From the NCBI GenBank assembly GCA_032718475.1, contig JAUCBJ010002445.1, forward strand, positions 1-44,993: 44,993 nt of DNA, read 5' to 3'. This DNA comes from Nemertoderma westbladi. Lineage: Eukaryota; Animalia; Xenacoelomorpha. Below, piece by piece: positions 1 to 43,269 of the stretch. The notes under the pieces were generated by a model. The model did no database searches and was not told where the DNA came from. It saw only the letters and a list, made by a program, of their open reading frames with translations. The first letter of the stretch is position 1, and each line of letters begins with the position of its first letter. The position numbers and the translations under genes were made by a program.

Positions 1-3000
1 GACTTACCTGTTACATAAAGTACACCACTCGGGGCCCGACTCAGTGACTTACCTGTTACATAAAGTACACCACCCGGGGCCCGACTCAGTGACTTACCTG
101 TTACATAAAGTACACCACCCGGGGCCCGACTCAGTGACTTACCTGTTAGATAAAGTACACCACCCGGGGTCCGACTCAGTGACTTACCTGTTACATAAAG
201 TACACCACTCGGGGTCCGACTCAGTGACTTACCTGTTACATAAAGTACACCACCCGGGGCCCGACTCAGTGACTTACCTGTTACATAAAGTACACCACCC
301 GGGGTCCGACTCAGTGACTTACCTGTTACATAAAGTACACCACCCGGGGTCCGACTCAGTGACTTACCTGTTAGATAAAGTACACCACCCGGGGCCCGAC
401 TCAGTGACTTACCTGTTACATAAAGTACACCACTCGGGGTCCGACTCAGTGACTTACCTGTTAGATAAAGTACACCACCCGGGGCCCGACTCAGTGACTT
501 ACCTGTTAGATAAAGTACACCACCCGGGGCCCGACTCAGTGACTTACCTGTTACATAAAGTACACCACCCGGGGTCCGACTCAGTGACTTACCTGTTAGA
601 TAAAGTACACCACCCGGGGCCCGACTCAGTGACTTACCTGTTAGATAAAGTACACCACCCGGGGTCCGACTCAGTGACTTACCTGTTAGATAAAGTACAC
701 CACTCGGGGTCCGACTCAGTGACTTACCTGTTAGATAAAGTACACCACCCGGGGCCCGACTCAGTGACTTACCTGTTAGATAAAGTACACCACCCGGGGT
801 CCGACTCAGTGACTTACCTGTTAGATAAAGTACACCACTCGGGGTCCGACTCAGTGACTTACCTGTTAGATAAAGTACACCACCCGGGGCCCGACTCAGT
901 GACTTACCTGTTAGATAAAGTACACCACCCGGGGTCCGACTCAGTGACTTACCTGTTAGATAAAGTACACCACCCGGGGTCCGGCTCAGTGACTTACCTG
1001 TTAGATAAAGTACACCACCCGGGGTCCGACTCAGTGACTTACCTGTTAGATAAAGTACACCACCCGGGGTCCGACTCAGTGACTTACCTGTTAGATAAAG
1101 TACACCACCCGGGGTCCGGCTCAGTGACTTACCTGTTAGATAAAGTACACCACCCGGGGCCCGACTCAGTGACTTACCTGTTACATAAAGTACACCACCC
1201 GGGGTCCGACTCAGTGACTTACCTGTTAGATAAAGTACACCACCCGGGGTCCGGCTCAGTGACTTACCTGTTAGATAAAGTACACCACCCGGGGTCCGAC
1301 TCAGTGACTTACCTGTTACATAAAGTACACCACCCGGGGCCCGACTCAGTGACTTACCTGTTACATAAAGTACACCACCCGGGGCCCGACTCAGTGACTT
1401 ACCTGTTACATAAAGTACACCACCCGGGGTCCGACTCAGTGACTTACCTGTTACATAAAGTACACCACCCGGGGCCCGACTCAGTGACTTACCTGTTACA
1501 TAAAGTACACCACTCGGGGCCCGACTCAGTGACTTACCTGTTACATAAAGTACACCACCCGGGGCCCGACTCAGTGACTTACCTGTTACATAAAGTACAC
1601 CACTCGGGGCCCGACTCAGTGACTTACCTGTTACATAAAGTACACCACCCGGGGTCCGACTCAGTGACTTACCTGTTACATAAAGTACACCACCCGGGGC
1701 CCGACTCAGTGACTTACCTGTTACATAAAGTACACCACTCGGGGCCCGACTCAGTGACTTACCTGTTACATAAAGTACACCACTCGGGGCCCGACTCAGT
1801 GACTTACCTGTTAGATAAAGTACACCACCCGGGGTCCGACTCAGTGACTTACCTGTTACATAAAGTACACCACCCGGGGTCCGACTCAGTGACTTACCTG
1901 TTACATAAAGTACACCACCCGGGGTCCGACTCAGTGACTTACCTGTTACATAAAGTACACCACTCGGGGCCCGACTCAGTGACTTACCTGTTACATAAAG
2001 TACACCACCCGGGGTCCGACTCAGTGACTTACCTGTTACATAAAGTACACCACCCGGGGTCCGACTCAGTGACTTACCTGTTAGATAAAGTACACCACCC
2101 GGGGCCCGACTCAGTGACTTACCTGTTACATAAAGTACACCACTCGGGGCCCGACTCAGTGACTTACCTGTTACATAAAGTACACCACCCGGGGTCCGAC
2201 TCAGTGACTTACCTGTTACATAAAGTACACCACCCGGGGTCCGACTCAGTGACTTACCTGTTACATAAAGTACACCACCCGGGGTCCGACTCAGTGACTT
2301 ACCTGTTACATAAAGTACACCACTCGGGGCCCGACTCAGTGACTTACCTGTTATATAAAGTACACCACCCGGGGTCCGACTCAGTGACTTACCTGTTACA
2401 TAAAGTACACCACCCGGGGTCCGACTCAGTGACTTACCTGTTAGATAAAGTACACCACCCGGGGCCCGACTCAGTGACTTACCTGTTACATAAAGTACAC
2501 CACCCGGGGTCCGACTCAGTGACTTACCTGTTACATAAAGTACACCACTCGGGGTCCGACTCAGTGACTTACCTGTTACATAAAGCACACCACCCGGGGC
2601 CCGACTCAGTGACTTACCTGTTAGATAAAGTACACCACTCGGGGTCCGACTCAGTGACTTACCTGTTAGATAAAGTACACCACCCGGGGCCCGACTCAGT
2701 GACTTACCTGTTAGATAAAGTACACCACCCGGGGTCCGACTCAGTGACTTACCTGTTAGATAAAGTACACCACCCGGGGTCCGACTCAGTGACTTACCTG
2801 TTACATAAAGTACACCACCCGGGGTCCGACTCAGTGACTTACCTGTTACATAAAGTACACCACCCGGGGTCCGACTCAGTGACTTACCTGTTAGATAAAG
2901 TACACCACCCGGGGCCCGACTCAGTGACTTACCTGTTACATAAAGTACACCACCCGGGGTCCGACTCAGTGACTTACCTGTTACATAAAGTACACCACTC

Positions 3001-6000
3001 GGGGTCCGACTCAGTGACTTACCTGTTACATAAAGTACACCACCCGGGGCCCGACTCAGTGACTTACCTGTTAGATAAAGTACACCACTCGGGGTCCGAC
3101 TCAGTGACTTACCTGTTAGATAAAGTACACCACCCGGGGCCCGACTCAGTGACTTACCTGTTAGATAAAGTACACCACCCGGGGTCCGACTCAGTGACTT
3201 ACCTGTTAGATAAAGTACACCACCCGGGGTCCGACTCAGTGACTTACCTGTTACATAAAGTACACCACCCGGGGTCCGACTCAGTGACTTACCTGTTAGA
3301 TAAAGTACACCACCCGGGGCCCGACTCAGTGACTTACCTGTTACATAAAGTACACCACTCGGGGCCCGACTCAGTGACTTACCTGTTACATAAAGTACAC
3401 CACTCGGGGCCCGACTCAGTGACTTACCTGTTACATAAAGTACACCACTCGGGGCCCGACTCAGTGACTTACCTGTTACATAAAGTACACCACTCGGGGC
3501 CCGACTCAGTGACTTACCTGTTACATAAAGTACACCACCCGGGGTCCGACTCAGTGACTTACCTGTTACATAAAGTACACCACCCGGGGCCCGACTCAGT
3601 GACTTACCTGTTACATAAAGTACACCACTCGGGGCCCGACTCAGTGACTTACCTGTTACATAAAGTACACCACTCGGGGCCCGACTCAGTGACTTACCTG
3701 TTACATAAAGTACACCACCCGGGGTCCGACTCAGTGACTTACCTGTTACATAAAGTACACCACCCGGGGTCCGACTCAGTGACTTACCTGTTACATAAAG
3801 TACACCACCCGGGGTCCGACTCAGTGACTTACCTGTTACATAAAGTACACCACTCGGGGCCCGACTCAGTCACTTACCTGTTACATAAAGTACACCACCC
3901 GGGGTCAGACTCAGTGACTTACCTGTTACATAAAGTACACCACCCGGGGTCCGACTCAGTGACTTACCTGTTAGATAAAGTACACCACCCGGGGCCCGAC
4001 TCAGTGACTTACCTGTTACATAAAGTACACCACCCGGGGCCCGACTCAGTGACTTACCTGTTACATAAAGTACACCACCCGGGGTCCGACTCAGTGACTT
4101 ACCTGTTACATAAAGTACACCACCCGGGGTCCGACTCAGTGACTTACCTGTTACATAAAGTACACCACCCGGGGTCCGACTCAGTGACTTACCTGTTACA
4201 TAAAGTACACCACTCGGGGCCCGACTCAGTGACTTACCTGTTATATAAAGTACACCACCCGGGGTCCGACTCAGTGACTTACCTGTTACATAAAGTACAC
4301 CACCCGGGGTCTGACTCAGTGACTTACCTGTTAGATAAAGTACACCACCCGGGGCCCGACTCAGTGACTTACCTGTTACATAAAGTACACCACCCGGGGT
4401 CCGACTCAGTGACTTACCTGTTACATAAAGTACACCACTCGGGGTCCGACTCAGTGACTTACCTGTTACATAAAGTACACCACCCGGGGCCCGACTCAGT
4501 GACTTACCTGTTAGATAAAGTACACCACTCGGGGTCCGACTCAGTGACTTACCTGTTAGATAAAGTACACCACCCGGGGCCCGACTCAGTGACTTACCTG
4601 TTAGATAAAGTACACCACCCGGGGTCCGACTCAGTGACTTACCTGTTAGATAAAGTACACCACCCGGGGTCCGACTCAGTGACTTACCTGTTAGATAAAG
4701 TACACCACCCGGGGTCCGACTCAGTGACTTACCTGTTAGATAAAGTACACCACCCGGGGTCCGACTCAGTGACTTACCTGTTACATAAAGTACACCACCC
4801 GGGGTCCGGCTCAGTGACTTACCTGTTAGATAAAGTACACCACCCGGGGCCCGACTCAGTGACTTACCTGTTACATAAAGTACACCACCCGGGGTCCGAC
4901 TCAGTGACTTACCTGTTAGATAAAGTACACCACCCGGGGTCCGACTCAGTGACTTACCTGTTAGATAAAGTACACCACCCGGGGCCCGACTCAGTGACTT
5001 ACCTGTTACATAAAGTACACCACCCGGGGCCCGACTCAGTGACTTACCTGTTACATAAAGTACACCACCCGGGGCCCGACTCCGTGACTTACCTGTTAGA
5101 TAAAGTACACCACCCGGGGCCCGACTCAGTGACTTACCTGTTAGATAAAGTACACCACCCGGGGTCCGACTCAGTGACTCACCTGTTAGATAAAGTACAC
5201 CACCCGGGGTCCGGCTCAGTGACTTACCTGTTAGATAAAGTACACCACCCGGGGTCCGACTCAGTGACTTACCTGTTAGATAAAGTACACCACCCGGGGT
5301 CCGGCTCAGTGACTTACCTGTTAGATAAAGTACACCACCCGGGGTCCGACTCAGTGACTTACCTGTTAGATAAAGTACACCACGCGGGGCCCGACTCAGT
5401 GACTTACCTGTTAGATAAAGTACACCACCCGGGGTCCGACTCAGTGACTTACCTGTTACATAAAGTACACCACCCGGGGCCCGACTCAGTGACTTACCTG
5501 TTACATAAAGTACACCACCCGGGGCCCGACTCCGTGACTTACCTGTTAGATAAAGTACACCACCCGGGGCCCGACTCCGTGACTTACCTGTTAGATAAAG
5601 TACACCACCCGGGGTCCGACTCAGTGACTTACCTGTTAGATAAAGTACACCACCCGGGGTCCGACTCAGTGACTTACCTGTTAGATAAAGTACACCACCC
5701 GGGGTCTGGCTCAGTGACTTACCTGTTAGATAAAGTACACCACCCGGGGTCCGACTCAGTGACTTACCTGTTAGATAAAGTACACCACGCGGGGCCCGAC
5801 TCAGTGACTTACCTGTTAGATAAAGTACACCACCCGGGGTCCGGCTCAGTGACTTACCTGTTAGATAAAGTACACCACCCGGGGTCCGACTCAGTGACTT
5901 ACCTGTTAGATAAAGTACACCACCCGGGGTCCGACTCAGTGACTTACCTGTTAGATAAAGTACACCACCCGGGGTCCGGCTCAGTGACTTACCTGTTAGA

Positions 6001-9000
6001 TAAAGTACACCACCCGGGGCCCGACTCAGTGACTTACCTGTTACATAAAGTACACCACCCGGGGTCCGACTCAGTGACTTACCTGTTAGATAAAGTACAC
6101 CACCCGGGGTCCGGCTCAGTGACTTACCTGTTAGATAAAGTACACCACCCGGGGCCCGACTCAGTGACTTACCTGTTACATAAAGTACACCACCCGGGGC
6201 CCGACTCAGTGACTTACCTGTTACATAAAGTACACCACCCGGGGCCCGACTCAGTGACTTACCTGTTACATAAAGTACACCACCCGGGGTCCGACTCAGT
6301 GACTTACCTGTTAGATAAAGTACACCACCCGGGGTCCGGCTCAGTGACTTACCTGTTAGATAAAGTACACCACCCGGGGTCCGGCTCAGTGACTTACCTG
6401 TTAGATAAAGTACACCACTCGGGGTCCGACTCAGTGACTTACCTGTTACATAAAGCACACCACCCGGGGCCCGACTCAGTGACTTACCTGTTACATAAAG
6501 TACACCACCCGGGGCCCGACTCAGTGACTTACCTGTTACATAAAGTACACCACCCGGGGCCCGACTCAGTGACTTACCTGTTACATAAAGCACACCACCC
6601 GGGGCCCGACTCAGTGACTTACCTGTTACATAAAGTACACCACCCGGGGCCCGACTCAGTGACTTACCTGTTACATAAAGTACACCACTCGGGCTCCGAC
6701 TCAGTGACTTACCTGTTAGATAAAGTACACCACCCGGGGCCCGACTCAGTGACTTACCTGTTACATAAAGTACACCACCCGGGGCCCGACTCAGTGACTT
6801 ACCTGTTAGATAGAGTACACCACTCGGGGTCCGACTCAGTGACTTACCTGTTACATAAAGTACACCACTCGGGGTCCGACTCAGTGACTTACCTGTTACA
6901 TAAAGTACACCACCCGGGGCCCGACTCAGTGACTTACCTGTTACATAAAGTACACCACTCGGGGTCCGACTCAGTGACTTACCTGTTACATAAAGTACAC
7001 CACCCGGGGCCCGACTCAGTGACTTACCTGTTAGATAGAGTACACCACTCGGGGTCCGACTCAGTGACTTACCTGTTACATAAAGTACACCACTCGGGGT
7101 CCGACTCAGTGACTTACCTGTTACATAAAGTACACCACTCGGGGTCCGACTCAGTGACTTACCTGTTACATAAAGTACACCACTCGGGGTCCGACTCAGT
7201 GACTTACCTGTTACATAAAGTACACCACCCGGGGCCCGACTCAGTGACTTACCTGTTACATAAAGTACACCACTCGGGGTCCGACTCAGTGACTTACCTG
7301 TTAGATAAAGTACACCACCCGGGGCCCGACTCCGTGACTTACCTGTTAGATAAAGTACACCACCCGGGGCCCGACTCAGTGACTTACCTGTTAGATAAAG
7401 TACACCACCCGGGGTCCGACTCAGTGACTTATCTGTTAGATAAAGTACACCACCCGGGGCCCGACTCAGTGACTTACCTGTTACATAAAGTACACCACCC
7501 GGGGCCCGACTCAGTGACTTACCTGTTACTTAAAGTACACCACCCAGGGCCCGACTCAGTGACTTACCTGTTACATAAAGTACACCACCCGGGGCCCGAC
7601 TCCGTGACTTACCTGTTACATAAAGTACACCACTCGGGGTCCGACTCAGTGACTTACCTGTTACATAAAGTACACCACCCGGGGCCCGACTCAGTGACTT
7701 ACCTGTTAGATAAAGTACACCACCCGGGGCCCGACTCAGTGACTTACCTGTTAGATAAAGAACACCACCCGGGGTCCGACTCAGTGACTTACCTGTTACA
7801 TAAAGTACACCACCCGGGGCCCGACTCAGTGACTTACCTGTTAGATAAAGTACACCACCCGGGGTCCGACTCAGTGACTTACCTGTTAGATAAAGTACAC
7901 CACACGGGGTCCGACTCAGAGACTTACCTGTTACATAAAGTACACCACCCGGGGCCCGACTCAGTGACTTACCTGTTAGATAAAGTACACCACCCGGGGT
8001 CCGACTCAGTGACTTACCTGTTACATAAAGTACACCACCCGGGGCCCGACTCAGTGACTTACCTGTTAGATAAAGTACACCACCCGGGGTCCGACTCAGT
8101 GACTTACCTGTTACATAAAGTACACCACCCGGGGCCCGACTCAGTGACTTACCTGTTAGATAAAGTACACCACCCGGAGCCCGACTCAGCGACTTACCTG
8201 TTAGATAAAGTACACCACACGTGGCCCGACTCCGTGACTTACCTGTTACATAAAGTACACCACTCGGGGTCCGACTCAGTGACTTACCTGTTAGATAAAG
8301 TTCACCACCCGGGGCCCGACTCAGTGACTTACGTCTGTTAGATAAAGTACACCACCCGGGGTCCGACTCAGTGACTTACCTGTTACATAAAGTACACCAC
8401 CCGGGGCCCGACTCAGTGACTTACCTGTTAGATAAAGTACACCACCCGGGGCCCGACTCAGTGACTTACCTGTTAGATAAAGTACACCACCCGTGGCCCG
8501 ACTCCGTGACTTACCTGTTACATAAAGTACACCACTCGGGGTCCGACTCAGTGACTTACCTGTTAGATAAAGTACACCACCCGGGGCCCGACTCAGTGAC
8601 TTACCTGTTAGATAAAGTACACCACCCGGGGCCCGACTCAGTGACTTACCTGTTAGATAAAGTACACCACCCGGGGTCCGACTCAGTGACTTACCTGTTA
8701 CATAAAGTACACCACCCGGGGCCCGACTCAGTGACTTACCTGTTAGATAAAGTACACCACCCGGGGCCCGACTCAGTGACTTACCTGTTAGATAAAGTAC
8801 ACCACCCGTGGCCCGACTCCGTGACTTACCTGTTACATAAAGTACACCACTCGGGGTCCGACTCAGTGACTTACCTGTTAGATAAAGTACACCACCCGGG
8901 GCCCGACTCAGTGACTTACCTGTTAGATAAAGTACACCACCCGGGGCCCGACTCAGTGACTTACCTGTTAGATAAAGTACACCACCCGGGGCCCGACTCC

Positions 9001-12000
9001 GTGACTTACCTGTTAGATAAAGTACACCACCCGCAACCGGGGCCCGACTCAGTGACTTACCTGTTAGATAAAGTACACCACATGGGGTCCGACTCAGTGA
9101 CTTACCTGTTAGATAAAGTACACCACCCGGGGTCCGACTCAGTGACTTACCTGTTAGATAAAGTACACCACCCGGGGCCCGACTCCGTGACTTACCTGTT
9201 AGATAAAGTACACCACCCGCAACCGGGGCCCGACTCAGTGACTTACCTGTTAGATAAAGTACACCACACGGGGTCCGACTCAGTGACTTACCTGTTAGAT
9301 AAAGTACACCACCCGGGGTCCGACTCAGTGACTTACCTGTTAGATAAAGTACACCACTCGGGGTCCGACTCAGTGACTTACCTGTTAGATAAAGTACACC
9401 ACCCGGGGCCCGACTCCGTGACTTACCTGTTAGATAAAGTACACCACACGGGGTCCGACTCAGTGACTTACCTGTTAGATAAAGTACACCACCCGGGGTC
9501 CGACTCAGTGACTTACCTGTTAGATAAAGTACACCACTCGGGGTCCGACTCAGTGACTTACCTGTTAGATAAAGTACACCACCCGGGGTCCGACTTAGTG
9601 ACTTACCTGTTACATAAAGTACACCACCCGGGGCCCGACTCAGTGACTTACCTGTTAGATAAAGTACACCACCCGGGGTCCGACTCAGTGACTTACATGT
9701 TACATAAAGTACACCACCCGGGGCCCGACTCAGTGACTTACCTGTTAGATAAAGTACACCACCCGGAGCCCGACTCAGCGACTTACCTGTTAGATAAAGT
9801 ACACCACCCGGGGCCCAACTCCGTGACTTACCTGTTAGATAAAGTACACCACCCGGGGCCCGACTCAGTGACTTACCTGTTAGATAAAGTACACCACCCG
9901 GGGTCCGACTCAGTGACTTACCTGTTAGATAAAGTACACCACCCGGGGCCCGACTCAGTGACTTACCTGTTAGATAAAGTACACCATCCGGGGCCCGACT
10001 CAGAGACTTACCTGTTAGATAAAGTACACCACCCGGGGTCCGACTCAGTGACTTACCTGTTAGATAAAGTACACCACCCGGGGCCCGACTCAGTGACTTA
10101 CCTGTTAGATAAAGTACACCACCCGGGGCTCGACTCAGTGACTTACCTGTTAGATAAAGTACACCACCCGGGGCCCGACTCAGTGACTTACCTGTTAGAT
10201 AAAGTACACCACCCGGGGTCCGACTCAGTGACTTATCTGTTAGATAAAGTACACCACCCGGGGCCCGACTCAGTGACTTACCTGTTACATAAAGTACACC
10301 ACCCGGGGTCCGACTCAGTGACTTACCTGTTACATAAAGTACACCACCCGGGGCCCGACTCAGTGACTTACCTGTTACATAAAGTACACCACCCGGGGCC
10401 CGACTCAGTGACTTACCTGTTAGATAAAGTACACCACCCGGGGTCCGACTCAGTGACTTACGTCTGTTAGATAAAGTACACCACCCAGGGCCCGACTCCG
10501 TGACTTACCTGTTACATAAAGTACACCACCCGGGGTCCGACTCAGTGACTTACCTGTTAGATAAAGTACACCACCCGCGGCCCGACTCAGTGACTTACCT
10601 GTTAGATAGAGTACACCACCCGGGGTCCGACTCAGTGACTTACCTGTTAGATAAAGTACACCACACGGGGCCCGACTCAGTGACTTACCTGTTAGATAAA
10701 GTACACCACTCGGGGTCCGACTCAGTGATTTACCTGTTAGATAAAGTACACCACCCGGGGCCCGACTCAGTGACTTACCTGTTAGATAAAGTACACCACT
10801 CGGGGTCCGACTCAGTGATTTACCTGTTAGATAAAGTACACCACCCGGGGCCCGACTCAGTGACTTACCTGTTAGATAAAGTACACCACTCGGGGACCGA
10901 CTCAGTGATTTACCTGTTAGATAAAGTACACCACCCGGGGCCCGACTCAGTGACTTACCTGTTAGATAAAGTACACCACCCGGGGCCCAACTCAGTGACT
11001 TACCTGTTAGATAAAGTACACCACCCGGGGCCCGAATCAGTGACTTACCTGTTAGATAAAGTACACCACCCGGGGCCCGACTCAGTGACTTACCTGTTAG
11101 ATAAAGTACACCACCCGGGGTCCGACTCAGTGACTTACCTGTTAGATAAAGTACACCACCCGGGGCCCGACTCATTGACTTACCTGTTACATAAAGTACA
11201 CCACCCGGGGCCCGACTCCGTGACTTACCTGTTACATAAATTACACCACCCGGGGCCCGACTCCGTGACTTACCTGTTATATAAAGTACACCACCCGGGG
11301 TCCGACTCATTGACTTACCTGTTAGATAAAGTACACCACCCGGGGTCCGACTCCGTGACTTACCTGTTAGATAAAGTACACCACCCGGGGCCCGACTCCG
11401 TGACTTACCTGTTAGATAAAGTACACCACCCGGGGCCCGACTCAGTGACTTACCTGTTAGATAAAGTACACCACCCGGGGCCCGACTCAGTGACTTACCT
11501 GTTAGATAAAGTACACCACCCGGGGCCCAACTCAGTGACTTACCTGTTAGATAAAGTACACCACCCGGGGCCCGACTCAGTGACTTGTACCTGTTAGATA
11601 AAGTACACCACACGGGGTCCGACTCAGTGACTTACCTGTTAGATAAAGTACACCACACGGGGTCCGACTCAGTGACTTACCTGTTAGATAAAGCACACCA
11701 CCCGGGGTCCGACTCCGTGACTTACCTGTTAGATAAAGTACACCACCCGGGGTCCGACTCAGTGACTTACCTGTTACATAAAGTACACCACCCAGGGCCC
11801 GACTTAGTGACTTACCTGTTAGATAAAGTACACCACCCGGAGCCCGACTCAGAGACTTACCTGTTAGATAAAGTACACCACACGGGGTCCGACTCAGTGA
11901 CTTACCTGTTAGATAAAGTACACCACCCGGGGTCCGACTCAGTGACTTACCTGTTAGATAAAGTACACCACCCGGGGCCCGACTCCGTGACTTACCTGTT

Positions 12001-15000: not shown

Positions 15001-18000
15001 CACCACACGGGGTCCGACTCAGTGACTTACCTGTTAGATAAAGTACACCACCCGGGGTCCGACTCAGTGACTTACCTGTTAGATAAAGTACACCACTCGG
15101 GGTCCGACTCAGTGACTTACCTGTTAGATAAAGTACACCACCCGGGGTCCGACTTAGTGACTTACCTGTTACATAAAGTACACCACCCGGGGCCCGACTC
15201 AGTGACTTACCTGTTAGATAAAGTACACCACCCGGGGTCCGACTCAGTGACTTACATGTTACATAAAGTACACCACCCGGGGCCCGACTCAGTGACTTAC
15301 CTGTTAGATAAAGTACACCACCCGGTGCCCGACTCAGCGACTTACCTGTTAGATAAAGTACACCACCCGGGGCCCAACTCCGTGACTTACCTGTTAGATA
15401 AAGTACACCACCCGGGGCCCGACTCAGTGACTTACCTGTTAGATAAAGTACACCACCCGGGGTCCGACTCAGTGACTTACCTGTTAGATAAAGTACACCA
15501 CCCGGGGCCCGACTCAGTGACTTACCTGTTAGATAAAGTACACCATCCGGGGCCCGACTCAGAGACTTACCTGTTAGATAAAGTACACCACCCGGGGTCC
15601 GACTCAGTGACTTACCTGTTAGATAAAGTACACCACCCGGGGCCCGACTCAGTGACTTACCTGTTAGATAAAGTACACCACCCGGGGCCCGACTCAGTGA
15701 CTTACCTGTTAGATAAAGTACACCACCCGGGGCCCGACTCAGTGACTTACCTGTTAGATAAAGTACACCACCCGGGGTCCGACTCAGTGACTTATCTGTT
15801 AGATAAAGTACACCACCCGGGGCCCGACTCAGTGACTTACCTGTTACATAAAGTACACCACCCGGGGTCCGACTCAGTGACTTACCTGTTACATAAAGTA
15901 CACCACCCGGGGCCCGACTCAGTGACTTACCTGTTACATAAAGTACACCACCCGGGGCCCGACTCAGTGACTTACCTGTTAGATAAAGTACACCACCCGG
16001 GGTCCGACTCAGTGACTTACGTCTGTTAGATAAAGTACACCACCCAGGGCCCGACTCCGTGACTTACCTGTTACATAAAGTACACCACCCGGGGTCCGAC
16101 TCAGTGACTTACCTGTTAGATAAAGTACACCACCCGCGGCCCGACTCAGTGACTTACCTGTTAGATAGAGTACACCACCCGGGGTCCGACTCAGTGACTT
16201 ACCTGTTAGATAAAGTACACCACACGGGGCCCGACTCAGTGACTTACCTGTTAGATAAAGTACACCACTCGGGGTCCGACTCAGTGATTTACCTGTTAGA
16301 TAAAGTACACCACCCGGGGCCCGACTCAGTGACTTACCTGTTAGATAAAGTACACCACTCGGGGTCCGACTCAGTGATTTACCTGTTAGATAAAGTACAC
16401 CACCCGGGGCCCGACTCAGTGACTTACCTGTTAGATAAAGTACACCACTCGGGGTCCGACTCAGTGACTTACCTGTTAGATAAAGTACACCACCCGGGGC
16501 CCAACTCAGTGACTTACCTGTTAGATAAAGTACACCACCCGGGGCCCGAATCAGTGACTTACCTGTTAGATAAAGTACACCACCCGGGGCCCGACTCAGT
16601 GACTTACCTGTTAGATAAAGTACACCACCCGGGGTCCGACTCAGTGACTTACCTGTTAGATAAAGTACACCACCCGGGGCCCGACTCATTGACTTACCTG
16701 TTACATAAAGTACACCACCCGGGGCCCGACTCCGTGACTTACCTGTTACATAAATTACACCACCCGGGGCCCGACTCCGTGACTTACCTGTTATATAAAG
16801 TACACCACCCGGGGTCCGACTCATTGACTTACCTGTTAGATAAAGTACACCACCCGGGGTCCGACTCCGTGACTTACCTGTTAGATAAAGTACACCACCC
16901 GGGGCCCGACTCCGTGACTTACCTGTTAGATAAAGTACACCACCCGGGGCCCGACTCAGTGACTTACCTGTTAGATAAAGTACACCACCCGGGGCCCGAC
17001 TCAGTGACTTACCTGTTAGATAAAGTACACCACCCGGGGCCCAACTCAGTGACTTACCTGTTAGATAAAGTACACCACCCGGGGCCCGACTCAGTGACTT
17101 GTACCTGTTAGATAAAGTACACCACACGGGGTCCGACTCAGTGACTTACCTGTTAGATAAAGTACACCACACGGGGTCCGACTCAGTGACTTACCTGTTA
17201 GATAAAGCACACCACCCGGGGTCCGACTCCGTGACTTACCTGTTAGATAAAGTACACCACCCGGGGTCCGACTCAGTGACTTACCTGTTACATAAAGTAC
17301 ACCACCCGGGGCCCGACTTAGTGACTTACCTGTTAGATAAAGTACACCACCCGGAGCCCGACTCAGAGACTTACCTGTTAGATAAAGTACACCACACGGG
17401 GTCCGACTCAGTGACTTACCTGTTAGATAAAGTACACCACCCGGGGTCCGACTCAGTGACTTACCTGTTAGATAAAGTACACCACCCGGGGCCCGACTCC
17501 GTGACTTACCTGTTAGATAAAGTACACCACCCGCAACCGGGGCCCGACTCAGTGACTTACCTGTTAGATAAAGTACACCACACGGGGTCCGACTCAGTGA
17601 CTTACCTGTTAGATAAAGTACACCACCCGGGGTCCGACTCAGTGACTTACCTGTTAGATAAAGTACACCACTCGGGGTCCGACTCAGTGACTTACCTGTT
17701 AGATAAAGTACACCACCCGGGGCCCGACTCCGTGACTTACCTGTTAGATAAAGTACACCACACGGGGTCCGACTCAGTGACTTACCTGTTAGATAAAGTA
17801 CACCACCCGGGGTCCGACTCAGTGACTTACCTGTTAGATAAAGTACACCACTCGGGGTCCGACTCAGTGACTTACCTGTTAGATAAAGTACACCACCCGG
17901 GGTCCGACTTAGTGACTTACCTGTTACATAAAGTACACCACCCGGGGCCCGACTCAGTGACTTACCTGTTAGATAAAGTACACCACCCGGGGTCCGACTC

Positions 18001-21000
18001 AGTGACTTACATGTTACATAAAGTACACCACCCGGGGCCCGACTCAGTGACTTACCTGTTAGATAAAGTACACCACCCGGAGCCCGACTCAGCGACTTAC
18101 CTGTTAGATAAAGTACACCACCTGGGGCCCAACTCCGTGACTTACCTGTTAGATAAAGTACACCACCCGGGGCCCGACTCAGTGACTTACCTGTTAGATA
18201 AAGTACACCACCCGGGGTCCGACTCAGTGACTTACCTGTTAGATAAAGTACACCACCCGGGGCCCGACTCAGTGACTTACCTGTTAGATAAAGTACACCA
18301 CCCGGGGTCCGACTCAGTGACTTACCTGTTAGATAAAGTACACCACCCGGGGCCCGACTCAGTGACTTACCTGTTAGATAAAGTACACCATCCGGGGCCC
18401 GACTCAGAGACTTACCTGTTAGATAAAGTACACCACCCGGGGTCCGACTCAGTGACTTACCTGTTAGATAAAGTACACCACCCGGGGCCCGACTCAGTGA
18501 CTTACCTGTTAGATAAAGTACACCACCCGGGGCCCGACTCAGTGACTTACCTGTTAGATAAAGTACACCACCCGGGGCCCGACTCAGTGACTTACCTGTT
18601 AGATAAAGTACACCACCCGGGGTCCGACTCAGTGACTTATCTGTTAGATAAAGTACACCACCCGGGGCCCGACTCAGTGACTTACCTGTTACATAAAGTA
18701 CACCACCCGGGGTCCGACTCAGTGACTTACCTGTTACATAAAGTACACCACCCGGGGCCCGACTCAGTGACTTACCTGTTACATAAAGTACACCACCCGG
18801 GGCCCGACTCAGTGACTTACCTGTTAGATAAAGTACACCACCCGGGGTCCGACTCAGTGACTTACGTCTGTTAGATAAAGTACACCACCCAGGGCCCGAC
18901 TCCGTGACTTACCTGTTACATAAAGTACACCACCCGGGGTCCGACTCAGTGACTTACCTGTTAGATAAAGTACACCACCCGCGGCCCGACTCAGTGACTT
19001 ACCTGTTAGATAGAGTACACCACCCGGGGTCCGACTCAGTGACTTACCTGTTAGATAAAGTACACCACACGGGGCCCGACTCAGTGACTTACCTGTTAGA
19101 TAAAGTACACCACTCAGGGTCCGACTCAGTGATTTACCTGTTAGATAGAGTACACCACCCGGGGTCCGACTCAGTGACTTACCTGTTACATAAAGTACAC
19201 CACCCGGGGTCCGACTCAGTGACTTACCTGTTAGATAAAGTACACCACCCGCGGCCCGACTCAGTGACTTACCTGTTAGATAGAGTACACCACCCGGGGT
19301 CCGACTCAGTGACTTACCTGTTAGATAAAGTACACCACACGGGGCCCGACTCAGTGACTTACCTGTTAGATAAAGTACACCACTCGGGGTCCGACTCAGT
19401 GATTTACCTGTTAGATAAAGTACACCACCCGGGGCCCGACTCAGTGACTTACCTGTTAGATAAAGTACACCACTCGGGGTCCGACTCAGTGATTTACCTG
19501 TTAGATAAAGTACACCACCCGGGGCCCGACTCAGTGACTTACCTGTTAGATAAAGTACACCACTCGGGGTCCGACTCAGTGATTTACCTGTTAGATAAAG
19601 TACACCACCCGGGGCCCGACTCAGTGACTTACCTGTTAGATAAAGTACACCACCCGGGGCCCAACTCAGTGACTTACCTGTTAGATAAAGTACACCACCC
19701 GGGGCCCGAATCAGTGACTTACCTGTTAGATAAAGTACACCACCCGGGGCCCGACTCAGTGACTTACCTGTTAGATAAAGTACACCACCCGGGGTCCGAC
19801 TCAGTGACTTACCTGTTAGATAAAGTACACCACCCGGGGCCCGACTCATTGACTTACCTGTTACATAAAGTACACCACCCGGGGCCCGACTCCGTGACTT
19901 ACCTGTTACATAAATTACACCACCCGGGGCCCGACTCCGTGACTTACCTGTTATATAAAGTACACCACCCGGGGTCCGACTCATTGACTTACCTGTTAGA
20001 TAAAGTACACCACCCGGGGTCCGACTCCGTGACTTACCTGTTAGATAAAGTACACCACCCGGGGCCCGACTCCGTGACTTACCTGTTAGATAAAGTACAC
20101 CACCCGGGGCCCGACTCAGTGACTTACCTGTTAGATAAAGTACACCACCCGGGGCCCGACTCAGTGACTTACCTGTTAGATAAAGTACACCACCCGGGGC
20201 CCAACTCAGTGACTTACCTGTTAGATAAAGTACACCACCCGGGGCCCGACTCAGTGACTTGTACCTGTTAGATAAAGTACACCACACGGGGTCCGACTCA
20301 GTGACTTACCTGTTAGATAAAGTACACCACACGGGGTCCGACTCAGTGACTTACCTGTTAGATAAAGCACACCACCCGGGGTCCGACTCCGTGACTTACC
20401 TGTTAGATAAAGTACACCACCCGGAGCCCGACTCAGAGACTTACCTGTTAGATAAAGTACACCACACGGGGTCCGACTCAGTGACTTACCTGTTAGATAA
20501 AGTACACCACCCGGGGTCCGACTCAGTGACTTACCTGTTAGATAAAGTACACCACCCGGGGCCCGACTCCGTGACTTACCTGTTAGATAAAGTACACCAC
20601 CCGCAACCGGGGCCCGACTCAGTGACTTACCTGTTAGATAAAGTACACCACACGGGGTCCGACTCAGTGACTTACCTGTTAGATAAAGTACACCACCCGG
20701 GGTCCGACTCAGTGACTTACCTGTTAGATAAAGTACACCACTCGGGGTCCGACTCAGTGACTTACCTGTTAGATAAAGTACACCACCCGGGGCCCGACTC
20801 CGTGACTTACCTGTTAGATAAAGTACACCACACGGGGTCCGACTCAGTGACTTACCTGTTAGATAAAGTACACCACCCGGGGTCCGACTCAGTGACTTAC
20901 CTGTTAGATAAAGTACACCACTCGGGGTCCGACTCAGTGACTTACCTGTTAGATAAAGTACACCACCCGGGGTCCGACTTAGTGACTTACCTGTTACATA

Positions 21001-24000
21001 AAGTACACCACCCGGGGCCCGACTCAGTGACTTACCTGTTAGATAAAGTACACCACCCGGGGTCCGACTCAGTGACTTACATGTTACATAAAGTACACCA
21101 CCCGGGGCCCGACTCAGTGACTTACCTGTTAGATAAAGTACACCACCCGGAGCCCGACTCAGCGACTTACCTGTTAGATAAAGTACACCACCTGGGGCCC
21201 AACTCCGTGACTTACCTGTTAGATAAAGTACACCACCCGGGGCCCGACTCAGTGACTTACCTGTTAGATAAAGTACACCACCCGGGGTCCGACTCAGTGA
21301 CTTACCTGTTAGATAAAGTACACCACCCGGGGCCCGACTCAGTGACTTACCTGTTAGATAAAGTACACCATCCGGGGCCCGACTCAGAGACTTACCTGTT
21401 AGATAAAGTACACCACCCGGGGTCCGACTCAGTGACTTACCTGTTAGATAAAGTACACCACCCGGGGCCCGACTCAGTGACTTACCTGTTAGATAAAGTA
21501 CACCACCCGGGGCCCGACTCAGTGACTTACCTGTTAGATAAAGTACACCACCCGGGGCCCGACTCAGTGACTTACCTGTTAGATAAAGTACACCACCCGG
21601 GGTCCGACTCAGTGACTTATCTGTTAGATAAAGTACACCACCCGGGGCCCGACTCAGTGACTTACCTGTTACATAAAGTACACCACCCGGGGTCCGACTC
21701 AGTGACTTACCTGTTACATAAAGTACACCACCCGGGGCCCGACTCAGTGACTTACCTGTTACATAAAGTACACCACCCGGGGCCCGACTCAGTGACTTAC
21801 CTGTTAGATAAAGTACACCACCCGGGGTCCGACTCAGTGACTTACGTCTGTTAGATAAAGTACACCACCCAGGGCCCGACTCCTTGACTTACCTGTTACA
21901 TAAAGTACACCACCCGGGGTCCGACTCAGTGACTTACCTGTTAGATAAAGTACACCACCCGCGGCCCGACTCAGTGACTTACCTGTTAGATAGAGTACAC
22001 CACCCGGGGTCCGACTCAGTGACTTACCTGTTAGATAAAGTACACCACACGGGGCCCGACTCAGTGACTTACCTGTTAGATAAAGCACAACACTCGGGGT
22101 CCGACTCAGTGATTTACCTGTTAGATAAAGTACACCACCCGGGGCCCGACTCAGTGACTTACCTGTTAGATAAAGTACACCACTCGGGGTCCGACTCAGT
22201 GATTTACCTGTTAGATAAAGTACACCACCCGGGGCCCGACTCAGTGATTTACCTGTTAGATAAAGTACACCACCCGGGGCCCGACTCAGTGACTTACCTG
22301 TTAGATAAAGTACACCACTCGGGGTCCGACTCAGTGATTTACCTGTTAGATAAAGTACACCACCCGGGGCCCGACTCAGTGACTTACCTGTTAGATAAAG
22401 TACACCACTCGGGGTCCGACTCAGTGATTTACCTGTTAGATAAAGTACACCACCCGGGGCCCGACTCAGTGACTTACCTGTTAGATAAAGTACACCACCC
22501 GGGGCCCAACTCAGTGACTTACCTGTTAGATAAAGTACACCACCCGGGGCCCGAATCAGTGACTTACCTGTTAGATAAAGTACACCACCCGGGGCCCGAC
22601 TCAGTGACTTACCTGTTAGATAAAGTACACCACCCGGGGTCCGACTCAGTGACTTACCTGTTAGATAAAGTACACCACCCGGGGCCCGACTCATTGACTT
22701 ACCTGTTACATAAAGTACACCACCCGGGGCCCGACTCCGTGACTTACCTGTTACATAAATTACACCACCCGGGGCCCGACTCCGTGACTTACCTGTTATA
22801 TAAAGTACACCACCCGGGGTCCGACTCATTGACTTACCTGTTAGATAAAGTACACCACCCGGGGTCCGACTCCGTGACTTACCTGTTAGATAAAGTACAC
22901 CACCCGGGGCCCGACTCCGTGACTTACCTGTTAGATAAAGTACACCACCCGGAGCCCGACTCAGTGACTTACCAGTTAGATAAAGTACACCACCCGGGGC
23001 CCGACTCAGTGACTTACCTGTTAGATAAAGTACACCACCCGGGGCCCAACTCAGTGACTTACCTGTTAGATAAAGTACACCACCCGGGGCCCGACTCAGT
23101 GACTTGTACCTGTTAGATAAAGTACACCACACGGGGTCCGACTCAGTGACTTACCTGTTAGATAAAGTACACCACACGGGGTCCGACTCAGTGACTTACC
23201 TGTTAGATAAAGCACACCACCCGGGGTCCGACTCCGTGACTTACCTGTTAGATAAAGTACACCACCCGGGGTCCGACTCAGTGACTTACCTGTTACATAA
23301 ACTACACCACCCGGGGCCCGACTTAGTGACTTACCTGTTAGATAAAGTACACCACCCGGAGCCCGACTCAGAGACTTACCTGTTAGATAAAGTACACCAC
23401 ACGGGGTCCGACTCAGTGACTTACCTGTTAGATAAAGTACACCACCCGGGGTCCGACTCAGTGACTTACCTGTTAGATAAAGTACACCACCCGGGGCCCG
23501 ACTCCGTGACTTACCTGTTAGATAAAGTACACCACCCGCAACCGGGGCCCGACTCAGTGACTTACCTGTTAGATAAAGTACACCACACGGGGTCCGACTC
23601 AGTGACTTACCTGTTAGATAAAGTACACCACCCGGGGTCCGACTCAGTGACTTACCTGTTAGATAAAGTACACCACTCGGGGTCCGACTCAGTGACTTAC
23701 CTGTTAGATAAAGTACACCACCCGGGGCCCGACTCCGTGACTTACCTGTTAGATAAAGTACACCACACGGGGTCCGACTCAGTGACTTACCTGTTAGATA
23801 AAGTACACCACCCGGGGTCCGACTCAGTGACTTACCTGTTAGATAAAGTACACCACTCGGGGTCCGACTCAGTGACTTACCTGTTAGATAAAGTACACCA
23901 CCCGGGGTCCGACTTAGTGACTTACCTGTTACATAAAGTACACCACCCGGGGCCCGACTCAGTGACTTACCTGTTAGATAAAGTACACCACCCGGGGTCC

Positions 24001-26715
24001 GACTCAGTGACTTACATGTTACATAAAGTACACCACCCGGGGCCCGACTCAGTGACTTACCTGTTAGATAAAGTACACCACCCGGAGCCCGACTCAGCGA
24101 CTTACCTGTTAGATAAAGTACACCACCTGGGGCCCAACTCCGTGACTTACCTGTTAGATAAAGTACACCACCCGGGGCCCGACTCAGTGACTTACCTGTT
24201 AGATAAAGTACACCACCCGGGGTCCGACTCAGTGACTTACCTGTTAGATAAAGTACACCACCCGGGGCCCGACTCAGTGACTTACCTGTTAGATAAAGTA
24301 CACCATCCGGGGCCCGACTCAGAGACTTACCTGTTAGATAAAGTACACCACCCGGGGTCCGACTCAGTGACTTACCTGTTAGATAAAGTACACCACCCGG
24401 GGCCCGACTCAGTGACTTACCTGTTAGATAAAGTACACCACCCGGGGCCCGACTCAGTGACTTACCTGTTAGATAAAGTACACCACCCGGGGCCCGACTC
24501 AGTGACTTACCTGTTAGATAAAGTACACCACCCGGGGTCCGACTCAGTGACTTATCTGTTAGATAAAGTACACCACCCGGGGCCCGACTCAGTGACTTAC
24601 CTGTTACATAAAGTACACCACCCGGGGTCCGACTCAGTGACTTACCTGTTACATAAAGTACACCACCCGGGGCCCGACTCAGTGACTTACCTGTTACATA
24701 AAGTACACCACCCGGGGCCCGACTCAGTGACTTACCTGTTAGATAAAGTACACCACCCGGGGTCCGACTCAGTGACTTACGTCTGTTAGATAAAGTACAC
24801 CACCCAGGGCCCGACTCCGTGACTTACCTGTTACATAAAGTACACCACCCGGGGTCCGACTCAGTGACTTACCTGTTAGATAAAGTACACCACCCGCGGC
24901 CCGACTCAGTGACTTACCTGTTAGATAGAGTACACCACCCGGGGTCCGACTCAGTGACTTACCTGTTAGATAAAGTACACCACACGGGGCCCGACTCAGT
25001 GACTTACCTGTTAGATAAAGCACACCACTCGGGGTCCGACTCAGTGATTTACCTGTTAGATAAAGTACACCACCCGGGGCCCGACTCAGTGACTTACCTG
25101 TTAGATAAAGTACACCACTCGGGGTCCGACTCAGTGATTTACCTGTTAGATAAAGTACACCACCCGGGGCCCGACTCAGTGACTTACCTGTTAGATAAAG
25201 TACACCACTCGGGGTCCGACTCAGTGACTTACCTGTTAGATAAAGTACACCACCCGGGGCCCGACTCAGTGACTTACCTGTTAGATAAAGTACACCACCC
25301 GGGGCCCAACTCAGTGACTTACCTGTTAGATAAAGTACACCACCCGGGGCCCGACTCAGTGACTTACCTGTTAGATAAAGTACACCACTCGGGGTCCGAC
25401 TCAGTGATTTACCTGTTAGATAAAGTACACCACCCGGGGCCCGACTCAGTGACTTACCTGTTAGATAAAGTACACCACTCGGGGTCCGACTCAGTGATTT
25501 ACCTGTTAGATAAAGTACACCACCCGGGGCCCGACTCAGTGACTTACCTGTTAGATAAAGTACACCACCCGGGGCCCAACTCAGTGACTTACCTGTTAGA
25601 TAAAGTACACCACCCGGGGCCCGAATCAGTGACTTACCTGTTAGATAAAGTACACCACCCGGGGCCCGACTCAGTGACTTACCTGTTAGATAAAGTACAC
25701 CACCCGGGGTCCGACTCAGTGACTTACCTGTTAGATAAAGTACACCACCCGGGGCCCGACTCATTGACTTACCTGTTACATAAAGTACACCACCCGGGGC
25801 CCGACTCCGTGACTTACCTGTTACATAAATTACACCACCCGGGGCCCGACTCCGTGACTTACCTGTTATATAAAGTACACCACCCGGGGTCCGACTCATT
25901 GACTTACCTGTTAGATAAAGTACACCACCCGGGGTCCGACTCCGTGACTTACCTGTTAGATAAAGTACACCACCCGGGGCCCGACTCCGTGACTTACCTG
26001 TTAGATAAAGTACACCACCCGGGGCCCGACTCAGTGACTTACCTGTTAGATAAAGTACACCACCCGGGGCCCGACTCAGTGACTTACCTGTTAGATAAAG
26101 TACACCACCCGGGGCCCAACTCAGTGACTTACCTGTTAGATAAAGTACACCACCCGGGGCCCGACTCAGTGACTTGTACCTGTTAGATAAAGTACACCAC
26201 ACGGGGTCCGACTCAGTGACTTACCTGTTGGATAAAGTACACCACACGGGGTCCGACTCAGTGACTTACCTGTTAGATAAAGCACACCACCCGGGGTCCG
26301 ACTCCGTGACTTACCTGTTAGATAAAGTACACCACCCGGGGTCCGACTCAGTGACTTACCTGTTAGATAAAGCACACCACCCGGGGTCCGACTCCGTGAC
26401 TTACCTGTTAGATAAAGTACACCACCCGGGGTCCGACTCAGTGACTTACCTGTTACATAAAGTACACCACCCGGGGCCCGACTCAGTGACTTACCTGTTA
26501 GATAAAGTACACCACCCGGGGCCCGACTCAGCGACTTACCTGTTAGATAAAGTACACCACCCGGGGCCCGACTTAGTGACTTACCTGTTAGATAAAGTAC
26601 ACCACCCGGAGCCCGACTCAGACTTACCTGTTAGATAAAGTACACCACCCGGGGCCCGACTCCGTGACTTACCTGTTAGATAAAGTACACCACCCGCAAC
26701 CGGGGCCCGACTCAG
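1..26715. repeat. 45-bp tandem satellite, ~590 copies, derived from the exon 4/intron 4 junction; truncated by the window start
   Basis: Unit GACTTACCTGTTA(C/G)ATAAAGTACACCAC(C/T)CGGGG(C/T)CCGACTCAGT. The reverse complement equals the last ~43 nt of exon 4 minus 6 nt, plus the start of the intron (GTAAGTCA). Confidence 0.99.
8331..26715. repeat. Higher-order repeat (~2.1-3.2 kb period) within the 45-bp satellite
   Basis: Diagnostic rare variants recur in the same order. CTTACGTCTG at ~8331, 10460, 13440, 16019, 18864, 21844, 24779. CTTGTACCTG at ~11585, 17099, 20259, 23104, 26174. 51-bp units also recur periodically. Confidence 0.92.
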
Positions 26716-26779
26716 ACAAACACCTGCCGCAACTACCATCGTAATCGCCAACACAGTTAACCACCTTCAGTTTATTGAC
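26673..26779 (-). CDS. Plexin-like receptor, coding exon 4 (107 nt, PSI domain N-terminal part)
   Basis: Acceptor ttttatttcattcag|GTC and donor CAG|gtaagt, phase 0-2: VNKLKVVNCVGDYDGSCGRCLSESGPGCGWCTLSN(R). It carries the PSI signature C..Y..SC..CL.....CGWC. Confidence 0.9.
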
Positions 26780-28317: not shown

Positions 28318-28401
28318 ATTATAATTATGGAACAAGGAATATCTAGGAACTTAGTAGAAAATATATACTACAATTTTTACTTATTTGTAAAGATAACTCA
28401 C

Positions 28402-28551
28402 AGTGTAGTCGGTTATAGCGTAAATGTAACCTCCATCGTCAGTGGACCGCATTACAAGATTGGAGGTGCCAGTAGTGGATTCCAGAAGATTTACTTGGCG
28501 GTATTCTATGGGGTGATGGATAGAAGCATATCTCTGCGCATTCACAGCCAC
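28402..28551 (-). CDS. Plexin-like receptor, coding exon 3 (150 nt, end of Sema domain)
   Basis: Acceptor tcttgatttag|GTG and donor ACT|gtgagt, phase 0-0: VAVNAQRYASIHHPIEYRQVNLLESTTGTSNLVMRSTDDGGYIYAITDYT. The YIYAIT motif matches the Sema C-terminal YLYVMT-type strand. Confidence 0.82.
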
Positions 28552-34187: not shown

Positions 34188-34314
34188 ACTCCATATTGAA
34201 TTACATTGACAATAATTCATATAATAGCTAGTAATATAATATCCTGTCACACACGATGCGATCATATTCATTTGTTGTTGTACAAAAATGGTGTTTGCAA
34301 TGACTGTATGCAAC

Positions 34315-37262: not shown

Positions 37263-37454
37263 CTCAAGAATAGCGGCAGTATCTAATCCGATGTGAAGAT
37301 TAAGGTAAGAGCCTTGGTTTGTGGCTTCTATAGCAACAACATTGCCTGACTCAACAACATAAACAGCTGTTCTGTTCACGATTGATGTCCCACCAGCTAT
37401 TATTTGTCCCTGTTTATCATCCCATGTCTCGATGTCCCAACAGTGAATATCCGC
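37263..37454 (-). CDS. Plexin-like receptor, coding exon 2 (192 nt, Sema domain)
   Basis: Acceptor ttttgtctag|GCG and donor GAG|gtaaat, phase 0-0, open frame: ADIHCWDIETWDDKQGQIIAGGTSIVNRTAVYVVESGNVVAIEATNQGSYLNLHIGLDTAAILE. This fits the late Sema blade pattern (C...GG...I...AV...G...L). Not in the ORF track. Confidence 0.8.
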
Positions 37455-42897: not shown

Positions 42898-43269
42898 AAA
42901 AAACTTAAATTACAGAAAACTGTAGTAAGGGTAGTTGCAATTAATTCCATATTAAATATTATTTATTATAAAATATAAAATTTATTAATTTAATTAAGCG
43001 TCCAGAACGCCGATAAGTTAACCTTAACATTTAGAAGGCCCAGCTCAGTTCCAATACTATCACTAATAAATTAAAGTTTTCGTTAAAAATAATTACGATC
43101 TTCAAATCAAAGTTTATACGTATTTAATTTATATTATATTTTTTGTTTAACTCATTGGTGTATAGCTCGTTAAACTAATATAATATCGGCACGGAATTTA
43201 GAAAAACGGCTATTTATTTCGTAATAAAATAAATAAGTTATAATATCAACAACATCAATAAATATCAAC

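What the first reader, a model, noticed from the sequence alone, without database searches (positions are those of the whole stretch)
1..26779. A >=26.7 kb satellite born from a coding exon end and its splice donor: ~590 tandem CAG|GTAAGT sites in a plexin intron
Seen: on the minus strand the array begins inside PSI exon 4 (...CL-SESGPGCGWCTLSN-R|gtaagtcac). Each downstream unit repeats GAGTCGGGCCCCGGGTGGTGTACTTTATCTAACAG|GTAAGTCACT. Known: CAG|GTAAGT is the optimal U1-binding consensus, and small VNTRs spanning exon-intron junctions have been described. Inference: amplification to satellite scale in an apparently intact gene means the spliceosome must pick the first of hundreds of identical donors, and the pre-mRNA could load or sequester large amounts of U1 snRNP. 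CTGAG microhomology between exon (TGTCTGAGTC) and intron start (GTCACTGAGTC) suggests how the first duplication arose.
Basis: partly seen in the sequence, partly recalled or inferred. Interest (0 to 1): 0.88.

Follow-up and report, generated by a model that had tools for sequence, protein, structure and literature searches.

The report
Giant splice-donor satellite in plexin intron
The end of one exon of an animal plexin-like gene, with its splice signal, is copied at least 591 times into the next intron, yet the spliced transcript seen stops at the first, genuine signal, so this is likely a very large but neutral example of a repeat type already known from human and lancelet genes.

Summary
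The array is real: 591 units (mostly 45 bp) fill window 1-26672 behind exon 4 of a plexin-like gene, with 542 exact CAG|GTAAGT copies after the true donor. It has a ~2.9-kb higher-order period; eight 51-bp units keep 43 bases of exon unchanged. The gene is alive: one public run holds spliced contigs joining exons 1-2-3-4, and exon 4 ends at the first donor and continues in frame, restoring the PSI cysteine spacing. Three DNA runs, two haplotypes, hold the unit at high depth; the full length is not confirmed. Any later donor puts a stop codon right after exon 4, so wrong choices would likely be destroyed and hidden. This is the kind known from human F7, CBS and IFI6 introns and lancelet 'mirages', about 24 times more copies than the largest published case I read. 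The scan has noted it on other DNA (up to ~377 copies, sea urchin). The CTGAG microhomology argument is circular, and U1 sequestration is untested and unlikely. Open point: every unit is also a possible acceptor (AG|GT), so stepwise splicing is not excluded.

The parts
1..26672 (-). Tandem array in intron 4: 591 whole units (570 x 45, 12 x 47, 8 x 51, 1 x 43 bp), each the last 37-43 nt of exon 4 plus 8 nt of intron start; runs off the window
10463..24782 (-). Five measured higher-order blocks of 2579-2980 bp inside the array; pairwise 0-42 mismatches and 2-5 gap blocks; longest exact repeat in the array 1493 nt
9010..23565 (-). Eight dispersed 51-bp units (first bases 23565, 20630, 17560, 14805, 14619, 12046, 9246, 9060) whose last 43 nt equal the exon end; likely the ancestral unit
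   Evidence: ancestry is inference
26667..26675 (-). Authentic donor of exon 4, CAG|GTAAGT, followed in frame by TAA
   Evidence: the X2 contig ends at 26673 and goes on in other sequence
26673..26779 (-). Exon 4, first part of the PSI domain (107 nt, phase 0 to 2)
28402..28551 (-). Exon 3 (150 nt)
   Evidence: joint 26777/28400 skipping 1622 nt with GT..AG ends in X2
37263..37454 (-). Exon 2 (192 nt)
   Evidence: X2 contig with loose ends that match the end of exon 1 and the start of exon 3
43270..44376 (-). Exon 1 coding part: hydrophobic N-terminus and most of a plexin-type Sema domain (369 aa)
37541..42898 (-). Second array in the same gene (intron 1): 178 x 30 bp, each a pyrimidine run plus CAG (acceptor-like); skipped by the exon 1-2 join seen
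34313..35762 (-). Third array (intron 2): 87 x 17 bp, 63 copies of the donor-like TAG|GTGCGT; not at a known exon edge

Best explanation
This is an exon-end plus splice-donor tandem repeat (a 'mirage' or F7-type minisatellite) grown to at least 26.7 kb in intron 4 of a spliced plexin-like gene; the transcript contig seen uses the first donor, and the array is likely neutral. Shown: anatomy, open frame, splicing of exons 1-4, exit at the first donor, in-frame stop behind every later donor. Inferred history: a 51-bp duplication across the exon/intron edge, loss of 6 nt to give the 45-bp unit, expansion by slippage or unequal exchange, then ~2.9-kb block duplications. Inferred mechanism: the acceptor of exon 4 pairs with the nearest donor as it is transcribed (exon definition or 5'-to-3' scanning). 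Only the next few donors give exons of ordinary size (152, 195, 240, 285 nt against 107), so the cost of the array would level off after a few copies and its length would be free to drift. Slips to a later donor would give a message with a stop right after exon 4 and unused donor motifs, likely removed by nonsense-mediated decay or nuclear retention.
For: Spliced contigs in run X2: exon 3-4 joint with GT..AG ends; a 1772-nt contig matches 26673-26777 with 0 differences and then leaves the window; its 30 loose letters, read by hand in frame, give R-C-V-E-R-P-S-C. That restores CGWC-x5-C-x5-C, the spacing in 18 of 18 long homologues in which the motif was found (18 of 24 over 800 aa, many redundant). 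Exon 1-2 and 2-3 joins are seen too. DNA runs X1, X3, X4 hold many short unit contigs, summed depth 577-7699 against 14-28 on the flank; X3 is a second haplotype (5 substitutions over 37060-37570). Higher-order blocks differ from each other. Donor positions are neither purged nor protected: 5 distinct substitutions of 27 possible against 35 of 108 elsewhere, Fisher p 0.24. Predicted folding does not favour the first donor (unpaired probability 0.005 against a median 0.012-0.035 in the array), so position, not structure, likely decides. Precedent: only the most upstream F7 site is used, whatever the copy number up to 12 (PMC1557585); lancelet mirages do not disturb splicing (PMC3087553).
Against: The transcript evidence is one run (X2, listed as 'DNA?'; I take it as RNA because its contigs are spliced), contigs only, which drop rare forms. 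It comes from another sample (S2) than the DNA runs, so it is not shown that this individual carries the array; its exons 2-4 and 660 nt across intron 3 do match the window with 0 differences where X3 differs. Steady-state RNA cannot tell strict first-donor choice from decay of wrong products or from re-splicing. In F7, perfect-consensus pseudo-sites were the one class that did compete, although against a weak true site; here all sites are perfect. Summed depth is not a copy number, and the rough ratio of the 45-bp to the 30-bp array is 1.7-2.2 in X1 and X3 and 5.3 in X4 against at least 5.0 in the window, so the length is not confirmed. The neutrality test has little power (40 alleles).
Confidence: 0.7

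Rival explanations
1. Ratchet or self-correcting intron: each unit ends in CAG and the next starts with GTAAGT, so splicing from the first donor to any unit's AG rebuilds the same exon end and donor. The intron could be cut out stepwise, and a product made at a later donor could be re-spliced to the correct junction.
For: 570 of 591 unit junctions keep AG|GT. 484 of 570 45-bp units have no other AG in positions 14-42 (86 have one). A duplicated AGGT segment was spliced in 6-16% of minigene transcripts (PMC3265369 Results). The final mRNA would be the same as the one seen.
Against: The pyrimidine tract is weaker than in the gene's three true acceptors (11 of 20 against 13-15 of 20). A single 45-nt step is under the ~60-nt minimum intron given in PMC3265369. 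The CTAAC branch-like motif of one unit is followed by three nearer AGs before the next CAG (sequence). AG|GT comes free with any good donor. No nascent RNA was available.
Confidence: 0.1
2. Copy-number-dependent attenuator: leak to later donors, or slow removal of the long intron, sends part of the transcripts to decay or yields a secreted Sema plus half-PSI protein, so array length tunes plexin output.
For: Every extension meets TAA at once. Two proximal pseudo-sites are used in IFI6 (6-16) and CBS (PMC1557585 Introduction). Messages with unused donor motifs are retained and degraded in human cells (PMC9074902, listing and start of abstract only). The gene already shows a contig that reads from exon 3 into intron 3, so truncated forms may be tolerated.
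Against: No selection signal on the donor positions. F7 site choice did not change with copy number. Leak would involve the first few units only, so hundreds add little (inference).
Confidence: 0.1
3. The repeat is real but much shorter, and the assembly has inflated it.
For: Rough depth ratios in X1 and X3 are lower than the window predicts. No long reads were available, and no listed piece spans the array.
Against: Higher-order blocks are not identical; the longest exact repeat is 1493 nt in 26.7 kb. About 70 distinct unit types occur in ordered patterns. X4, another sample and study, gives the expected ratio.
Confidence: 0.07
4. U1 sponge or scaffold: the pre-mRNA loads hundreds of U1 snRNPs and lowers free U1 or forms a functional hub.
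For: 542 sites that match the strong donor consensus.
Against: One locus with a few nascent transcripts offers about 10^3-10^4 sites against a pool recalled as 10^5-10^6 per cell (recalled, no call). Donor motifs are not preferentially kept. The array has no AATAAA or ATTAAA that U1 would need to mask.
Confidence: 0.03

Closest known systems
Human F7 intron 7 37-bp VNTR, and the IFI6 (6-16), CBS intron 13, LMNB2 and PDGF intron 4 minisatellites (Borensztajn et al. 2006, PMC1557585; parts 1, 3 and 4 of 6 read)
   Same: First monomer spans the exon-intron edge; the donor is repeated in the intron; the most upstream site is used.
   Different: 5-9 copies in F7 and 10-25 in the others, against at least 591 here. 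F7 sites have consensus value 74; here all match the optimal consensus. 43 nt of coding exon are copied here, 4 nt in F7. Higher-order blocks of ~2.9 kb are present here.
Amphioxus 'mirage' minisatellites in Adh3, troponin C, globins BflGb6/BflGb9 and PGBD5 (PMC3087553 passages; PMC3902484 one passage)
   Same: Invertebrate tandem duplications of exon-intron edges that carry AG/GT signals and do not disturb the mRNA; both 5' and 3' edges can be copied.
   Different: 3-6 units in BflGb6; units 10-160 bp. Length instability between alleles or cells is reported there and was not measured here.
Intron gain by tandem duplication of an AGGT segment (PMC3265369 abstract and Results; PMC3443670 passages)
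   Same: A duplicated AG|GT gives a donor and an acceptor whose use restores the coding sequence.
   Different: There the duplication is inside an exon and creates an intron. Here it is at an existing donor, and use of the unit AGs is not shown.
Satellite DNA with higher-order repeats (general knowledge, recalled)
   Same: Tens of kb, ~95% identical monomers, multi-monomer blocks duplicated again.
   Different: One intronic locus seen; presence at other loci or centromeres could not be tested (no genome held).

Membership tests
Splice-donor minisatellite (F7-type, mirage) | Head-to-tail repeat whose first unit spans an exon-intron edge | tested here: met
Splice-donor minisatellite (F7-type, mirage) | Donor sequence reiterated in the intron | tested here: met
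   542 exact copies
Splice-donor minisatellite (F7-type, mirage) | Host gene expressed, main mRNA spliced at the most upstream donor | tested here: met
   One run, contigs only, another sample than the DNA runs
Splice-donor minisatellite (F7-type, mirage) | Copy number varies between alleles or cells | tested here: inconclusive
   Rough depth ratios differ between runs, but summed contig depth is no copy number
Splice-donor minisatellite (F7-type, mirage) | Downstream sites work when the first is lost | not testable with these tools
   Needs a minigene
Recursive splice sites (ratchet points) | YAG directly followed by a GT donor | tested here: met
   570 of 591 junctions keep AG|GT
Recursive splice sites (ratchet points) | Working pyrimidine tract and branch point | tested here: inconclusive
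   11 of 20 pyrimidines against 13-15 in three true acceptors
Recursive splice sites (ratchet points) | Splicing intermediates or lariats at the sites | not testable with these tools
   No raw RNA reads were listed
Plexin family | N-terminal Sema domain followed by PSI | tested here: met
   Exon 1 matches plexin-A4 and -A1 and full-length plexins, though it has no Pfam hit of its own; exon 4 hits PSI
Plexin family | IPT/TIG repeats, transmembrane helix, cytoplasmic RasGAP domain | not testable with these tools
   Downstream exons lie outside the window; a MET-like or other Sema-PSI protein is not excluded

The most novel reading that the evidence does not exclude
The array is a chain of about 570 ratchet points: a self-correcting intron that is removed stepwise or re-spliced, so any donor choice returns the right exon junction. 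That would free the repeat to grow to satellite size, and with two more splice-signal arrays in the same gene it would tie splice signals to tandem amplification.
Probability: 0.1. Interest if true: 0.75.

Novelty: new member of a known kind. Interest (0 to 1): 0.3.

Why it matters
As it stands it is an extreme data point: a working coding gene tolerates more than 540 perfect donors right behind the true one. That extends the first-donor rule from 5-25 weaker copies in mammals to satellite scale in a distant animal and suggests the splicing cost of such repeats levels off. It is a ready natural test of first-come choice against decay or re-splicing, in a setting (all sites perfect and equal) that the parts of the F7 paper I read did not test. 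It also warns annotators that a plexin gene can be 79% tandem repeat over its first 44 kb. It does not show a new mechanism.

Tried and rejected
No whole genome is held, so exon 5, the far end of the array and other loci could not be read. No RNA holder was listed; one listed run turned out to hold spliced contigs. In X2 no contig was laid on the 45-bp units at 88% likeness (3 contigs laid), while 6 contigs of the 30-bp unit were laid; a part without cover is no evidence, and it could mean little intron-4 RNA, a filter, or an individual without the array. X3 has no cover over most of exon 4, also no evidence. No contig with a long loose end from the array was listed, so the far junction was not found. 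The unit pattern found 0 matches in metagenome contigs and exon 1 found no related locus there (52 pattern matches, 0 confirmed), so no orthologous intron was compared. Two word-index protein searches with exon 1 found nothing; the full HMMER scan found 65 distant hits, mostly 24-42% identical. The Atlas search gave no answer. Rfam: 0 matches in 24000-44993; 1-24000 was not scanned. Rejected: structural masking of later donors; a coding role on the sense strand in the exon's frame (stop in each unit; one other sense frame and one antisense frame of the consensus unit are open, with no evidence of use); weakening of the nearest donors (the first 11 unit starts are all perfect); CTGAG microhomology (circular). 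A 3-nt GTC junction, as in the single 43-bp unit, is possible but needs more steps than 51 to 45 to 43. Motif odds for the 17-bp and 30-bp arrays (0.3% and 0.8% of random intron pieces) used patterns written after seeing them and are not a valid test. Literature: nine searches showed no published array of this size and none joining tandem repeats with ratchet points (0 papers); the library lacks most subscription papers, and no supplements were read.
Full report
Observation. Tandem Repeats Finder gives a 45-bp array of 591.7 copies over 1-26696 with 95% matches. My parse gives 591 whole units: 570 of 45 bp, 12 of 47, 8 of 51 and 1 of 43, plus a cut unit at base 1. On the minus strand four exons (44376-43270, 37454-37263, 28551-28402, 26779-26673) with AG acceptors and GT donors join into an open frame of 518 residues. 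Exon 4 scores as Pfam PSI just above the cut-off; exons 1-3 have no Pfam hit. Exon 1 matches plexin-A4 at E 1e-07 and full-length plexins in a HMMER scan. There are 542 exact CAGGTAAGT copies behind the true donor and none elsewhere on that strand; 49 of 591 unit starts deviate. The host is an animal. A retroelement remnant in intron 3 has a relative in the sponge Ephydatia muelleri among 20 hits, a weak hint only; the organism is not identified.

Is the gene alive? Yes, on the evidence of one run. The run search listed four holders, none on record as RNA. One of them, X2, holds spliced contigs: a joint skipping 1622 nt between exons 3 and 4 with GT..AG ends, and a 1772-nt contig that matches 26673-26777 with no difference and then continues for more than 255 letters in sequence outside the laid stretch. 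Its 30 listed loose letters, read by hand in the frame of exon 4, give R-C-V-E-R-P-S-C. With the exon this makes CGWC-x5-C-x5-C, the spacing in all 18 long homologues where the motif was found (18 of 24 over 800 aa, many redundant). A second contig joins exon 1 to exon 2 to exon 3. Limits: contigs drop rare forms, and X2 is another sample than the DNA runs. Its exons 2-4 and 660 nt across intron 3 equal the window where X3 differs, so it is likely the same haplotype.

Is the array real? Three DNA runs (two samples by label, two studies; X1 may be the source of the window) hold 35-126 laid contigs, with summed depth of 577-7699 on the units against 14-28 on the flank. X3 carries a second haplotype and also has the units. 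Five higher-order blocks of 2579-2980 bp differ by 0-42 substitutions and by whole-unit gaps, and the longest exact repeat is 1493 nt. That is not what a simple assembly stutter would give. Length is less sure: the rough ratio of the 45-bp to the 30-bp array is 2.2 (X1), 1.7 (X3) and 5.3 (X4) against at least 5.0 in the window, and the tool warns that such depth is no copy number.

Origin. Eight 51-bp units end in 43 nt identical to the exon end; their only non-exonic part is GTAAGTCA. The 45-bp unit lacks 6 nt of the exon. The simplest path is a 51-bp duplication, a 6-nt loss, expansion, and then block duplication; back-conversion of the 51-bp type from the exon is also possible (inference). 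Donor positions carry 5 distinct substitutions of 27 possible, other positions 35 of 108 (Fisher p 0.24): no sign that donors are purged or kept, with low power.

Mechanism. Use of the second to fifth donors would give exons of 152, 195, 240 and 285 nt instead of 107. All start with AGG TAA, so all end the protein right after exon 4. Predicted folding leaves the first donor no more open than the others. The best account is positional: the acceptor of exon 4 pairs with the nearest donor as it emerges, and only the first few copies are real competitors (exon-size limit recalled). Slips would be hidden by nonsense-mediated decay (general knowledge) or by retention of messages with unused donor motifs (PMC9074902, listing and start of abstract only). 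The cost would then level off and length could drift. These steps are inferred. A rival gives the same mRNA: 570 of 591 junctions keep AG|GT, so splicing to any unit's AG rebuilds the exon end. A duplicated AGGT was spliced at 6-16% in a minigene (PMC3265369 Results). Against it, the unit's pyrimidine tract is weaker than the gene's true acceptors and nearer AGs follow the branch-like motif. U1 sequestration is untested; by recalled pool sizes one locus is too small a sink.

Comparison. Borensztajn et al. (PMC1557585; parts 1, 3, 4 of 6 read) describe this arrangement in F7 (5-9 copies), 6-16 (25 pseudo-sites, two used), CBS (15-20, two used), lamin B2 and PDGF. In F7 the most upstream site wins with up to 12 copies, and only perfect-consensus pseudo-sites compete with the weak true site. 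Lancelet mirages are the invertebrate case (PMC3087553 passages; PMC3902484 passage). This scan's earlier notes list eight similar arrays on other DNA, the largest about 377 copies in a sea urchin gene (unchecked AI notes). Nine literature searches showed no published array of this size; the library is incomplete and no supplements were read.

Surroundings. The gene holds two more large arrays with sense-strand splice-like motifs: 178 x 30 bp (pyrimidine run plus CAG) in intron 1 and 87 x 17 bp (63 copies of TAG|GTGCGT) in intron 2. The X2 contig skips both. Neither sits at a known exon edge, and my odds for the motifs are post hoc. Tandem repeats make up 79% of the 44.4 kb from the start codon to the window's end, so this gene is repeat-prone in general, which lowers the surprise of one array at a donor.

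Verdict. Observation confirmed, interpretation partly supported. A new and very large member of a known kind, likely neutral. Interest 0.3. The ratchet reading has about 10% probability and would deserve 0.75.

Noticed in passing
window 37541-42898, minus strand: 178 x 30-bp array in intron 1, each unit a pyrimidine run plus CAG. Its upstream edge looks like a true acceptor, and the last unit leads into a 19-codon frame ending in a stop, about 105 nt before exon 2. It may be an acceptor mirage of a cryptic or dead exon. X2 joins exon 1 straight to exon 2 but also holds 6 short contigs of the unit at depth 8-104.
   Followed up: partly
window 34313-35762, minus strand: 87 x 17-bp array in intron 2 with 63 copies of the donor-like TAG|GTGCGT; flanked on both sides by the same 10-nt word GTTGCATACA.
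   Followed up: partly
window 27770-28429: An X2 contig (660 nt, depth 53.8) reads from the end of exon 3 into intron 3. A stop comes 6 codons after the exon, so it could be a secreted Sema-only isoform ending in the retroelement remnant, or retained intron. Contigs cannot show an RNA end.
   Followed up: partly
window 27794-28318, minus strand: 174-codon frame that looks like the C-terminal part of a non-LTR retrotransposon protein (family likeness recalled); 20 relatives found, one from Ephydatia muelleri; no Pfam hit; a second genomic copy with 14 differences shows in three DNA runs.
   Followed up: partly
window 33006-34190: Near-perfect direct duplication with ~591-bp spacing in intron 2.
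   Followed up: no
window 36877-37052: Six perfect copies of a 29-bp unit in intron 2, with no splice-like motif by my patterns.
   Followed up: no
window 37329, 37335, 37431: Three substitutions in exon 2 in run X3 mark a second haplotype of the gene.
   Followed up: no
window 1-8300 versus 8300-26672: The distal ~8 kb of the array loses the long higher-order period, shows short 4-5-unit patterns and more C-to-G variant units, and holds only 1 of the 49 altered donors beyond unit 430: two phases of expansion.
   Followed up: partly
window 29870-29900: A long G-rich run on the minus strand in intron 2, a possible G-quadruplex (seen).
   Followed up: no
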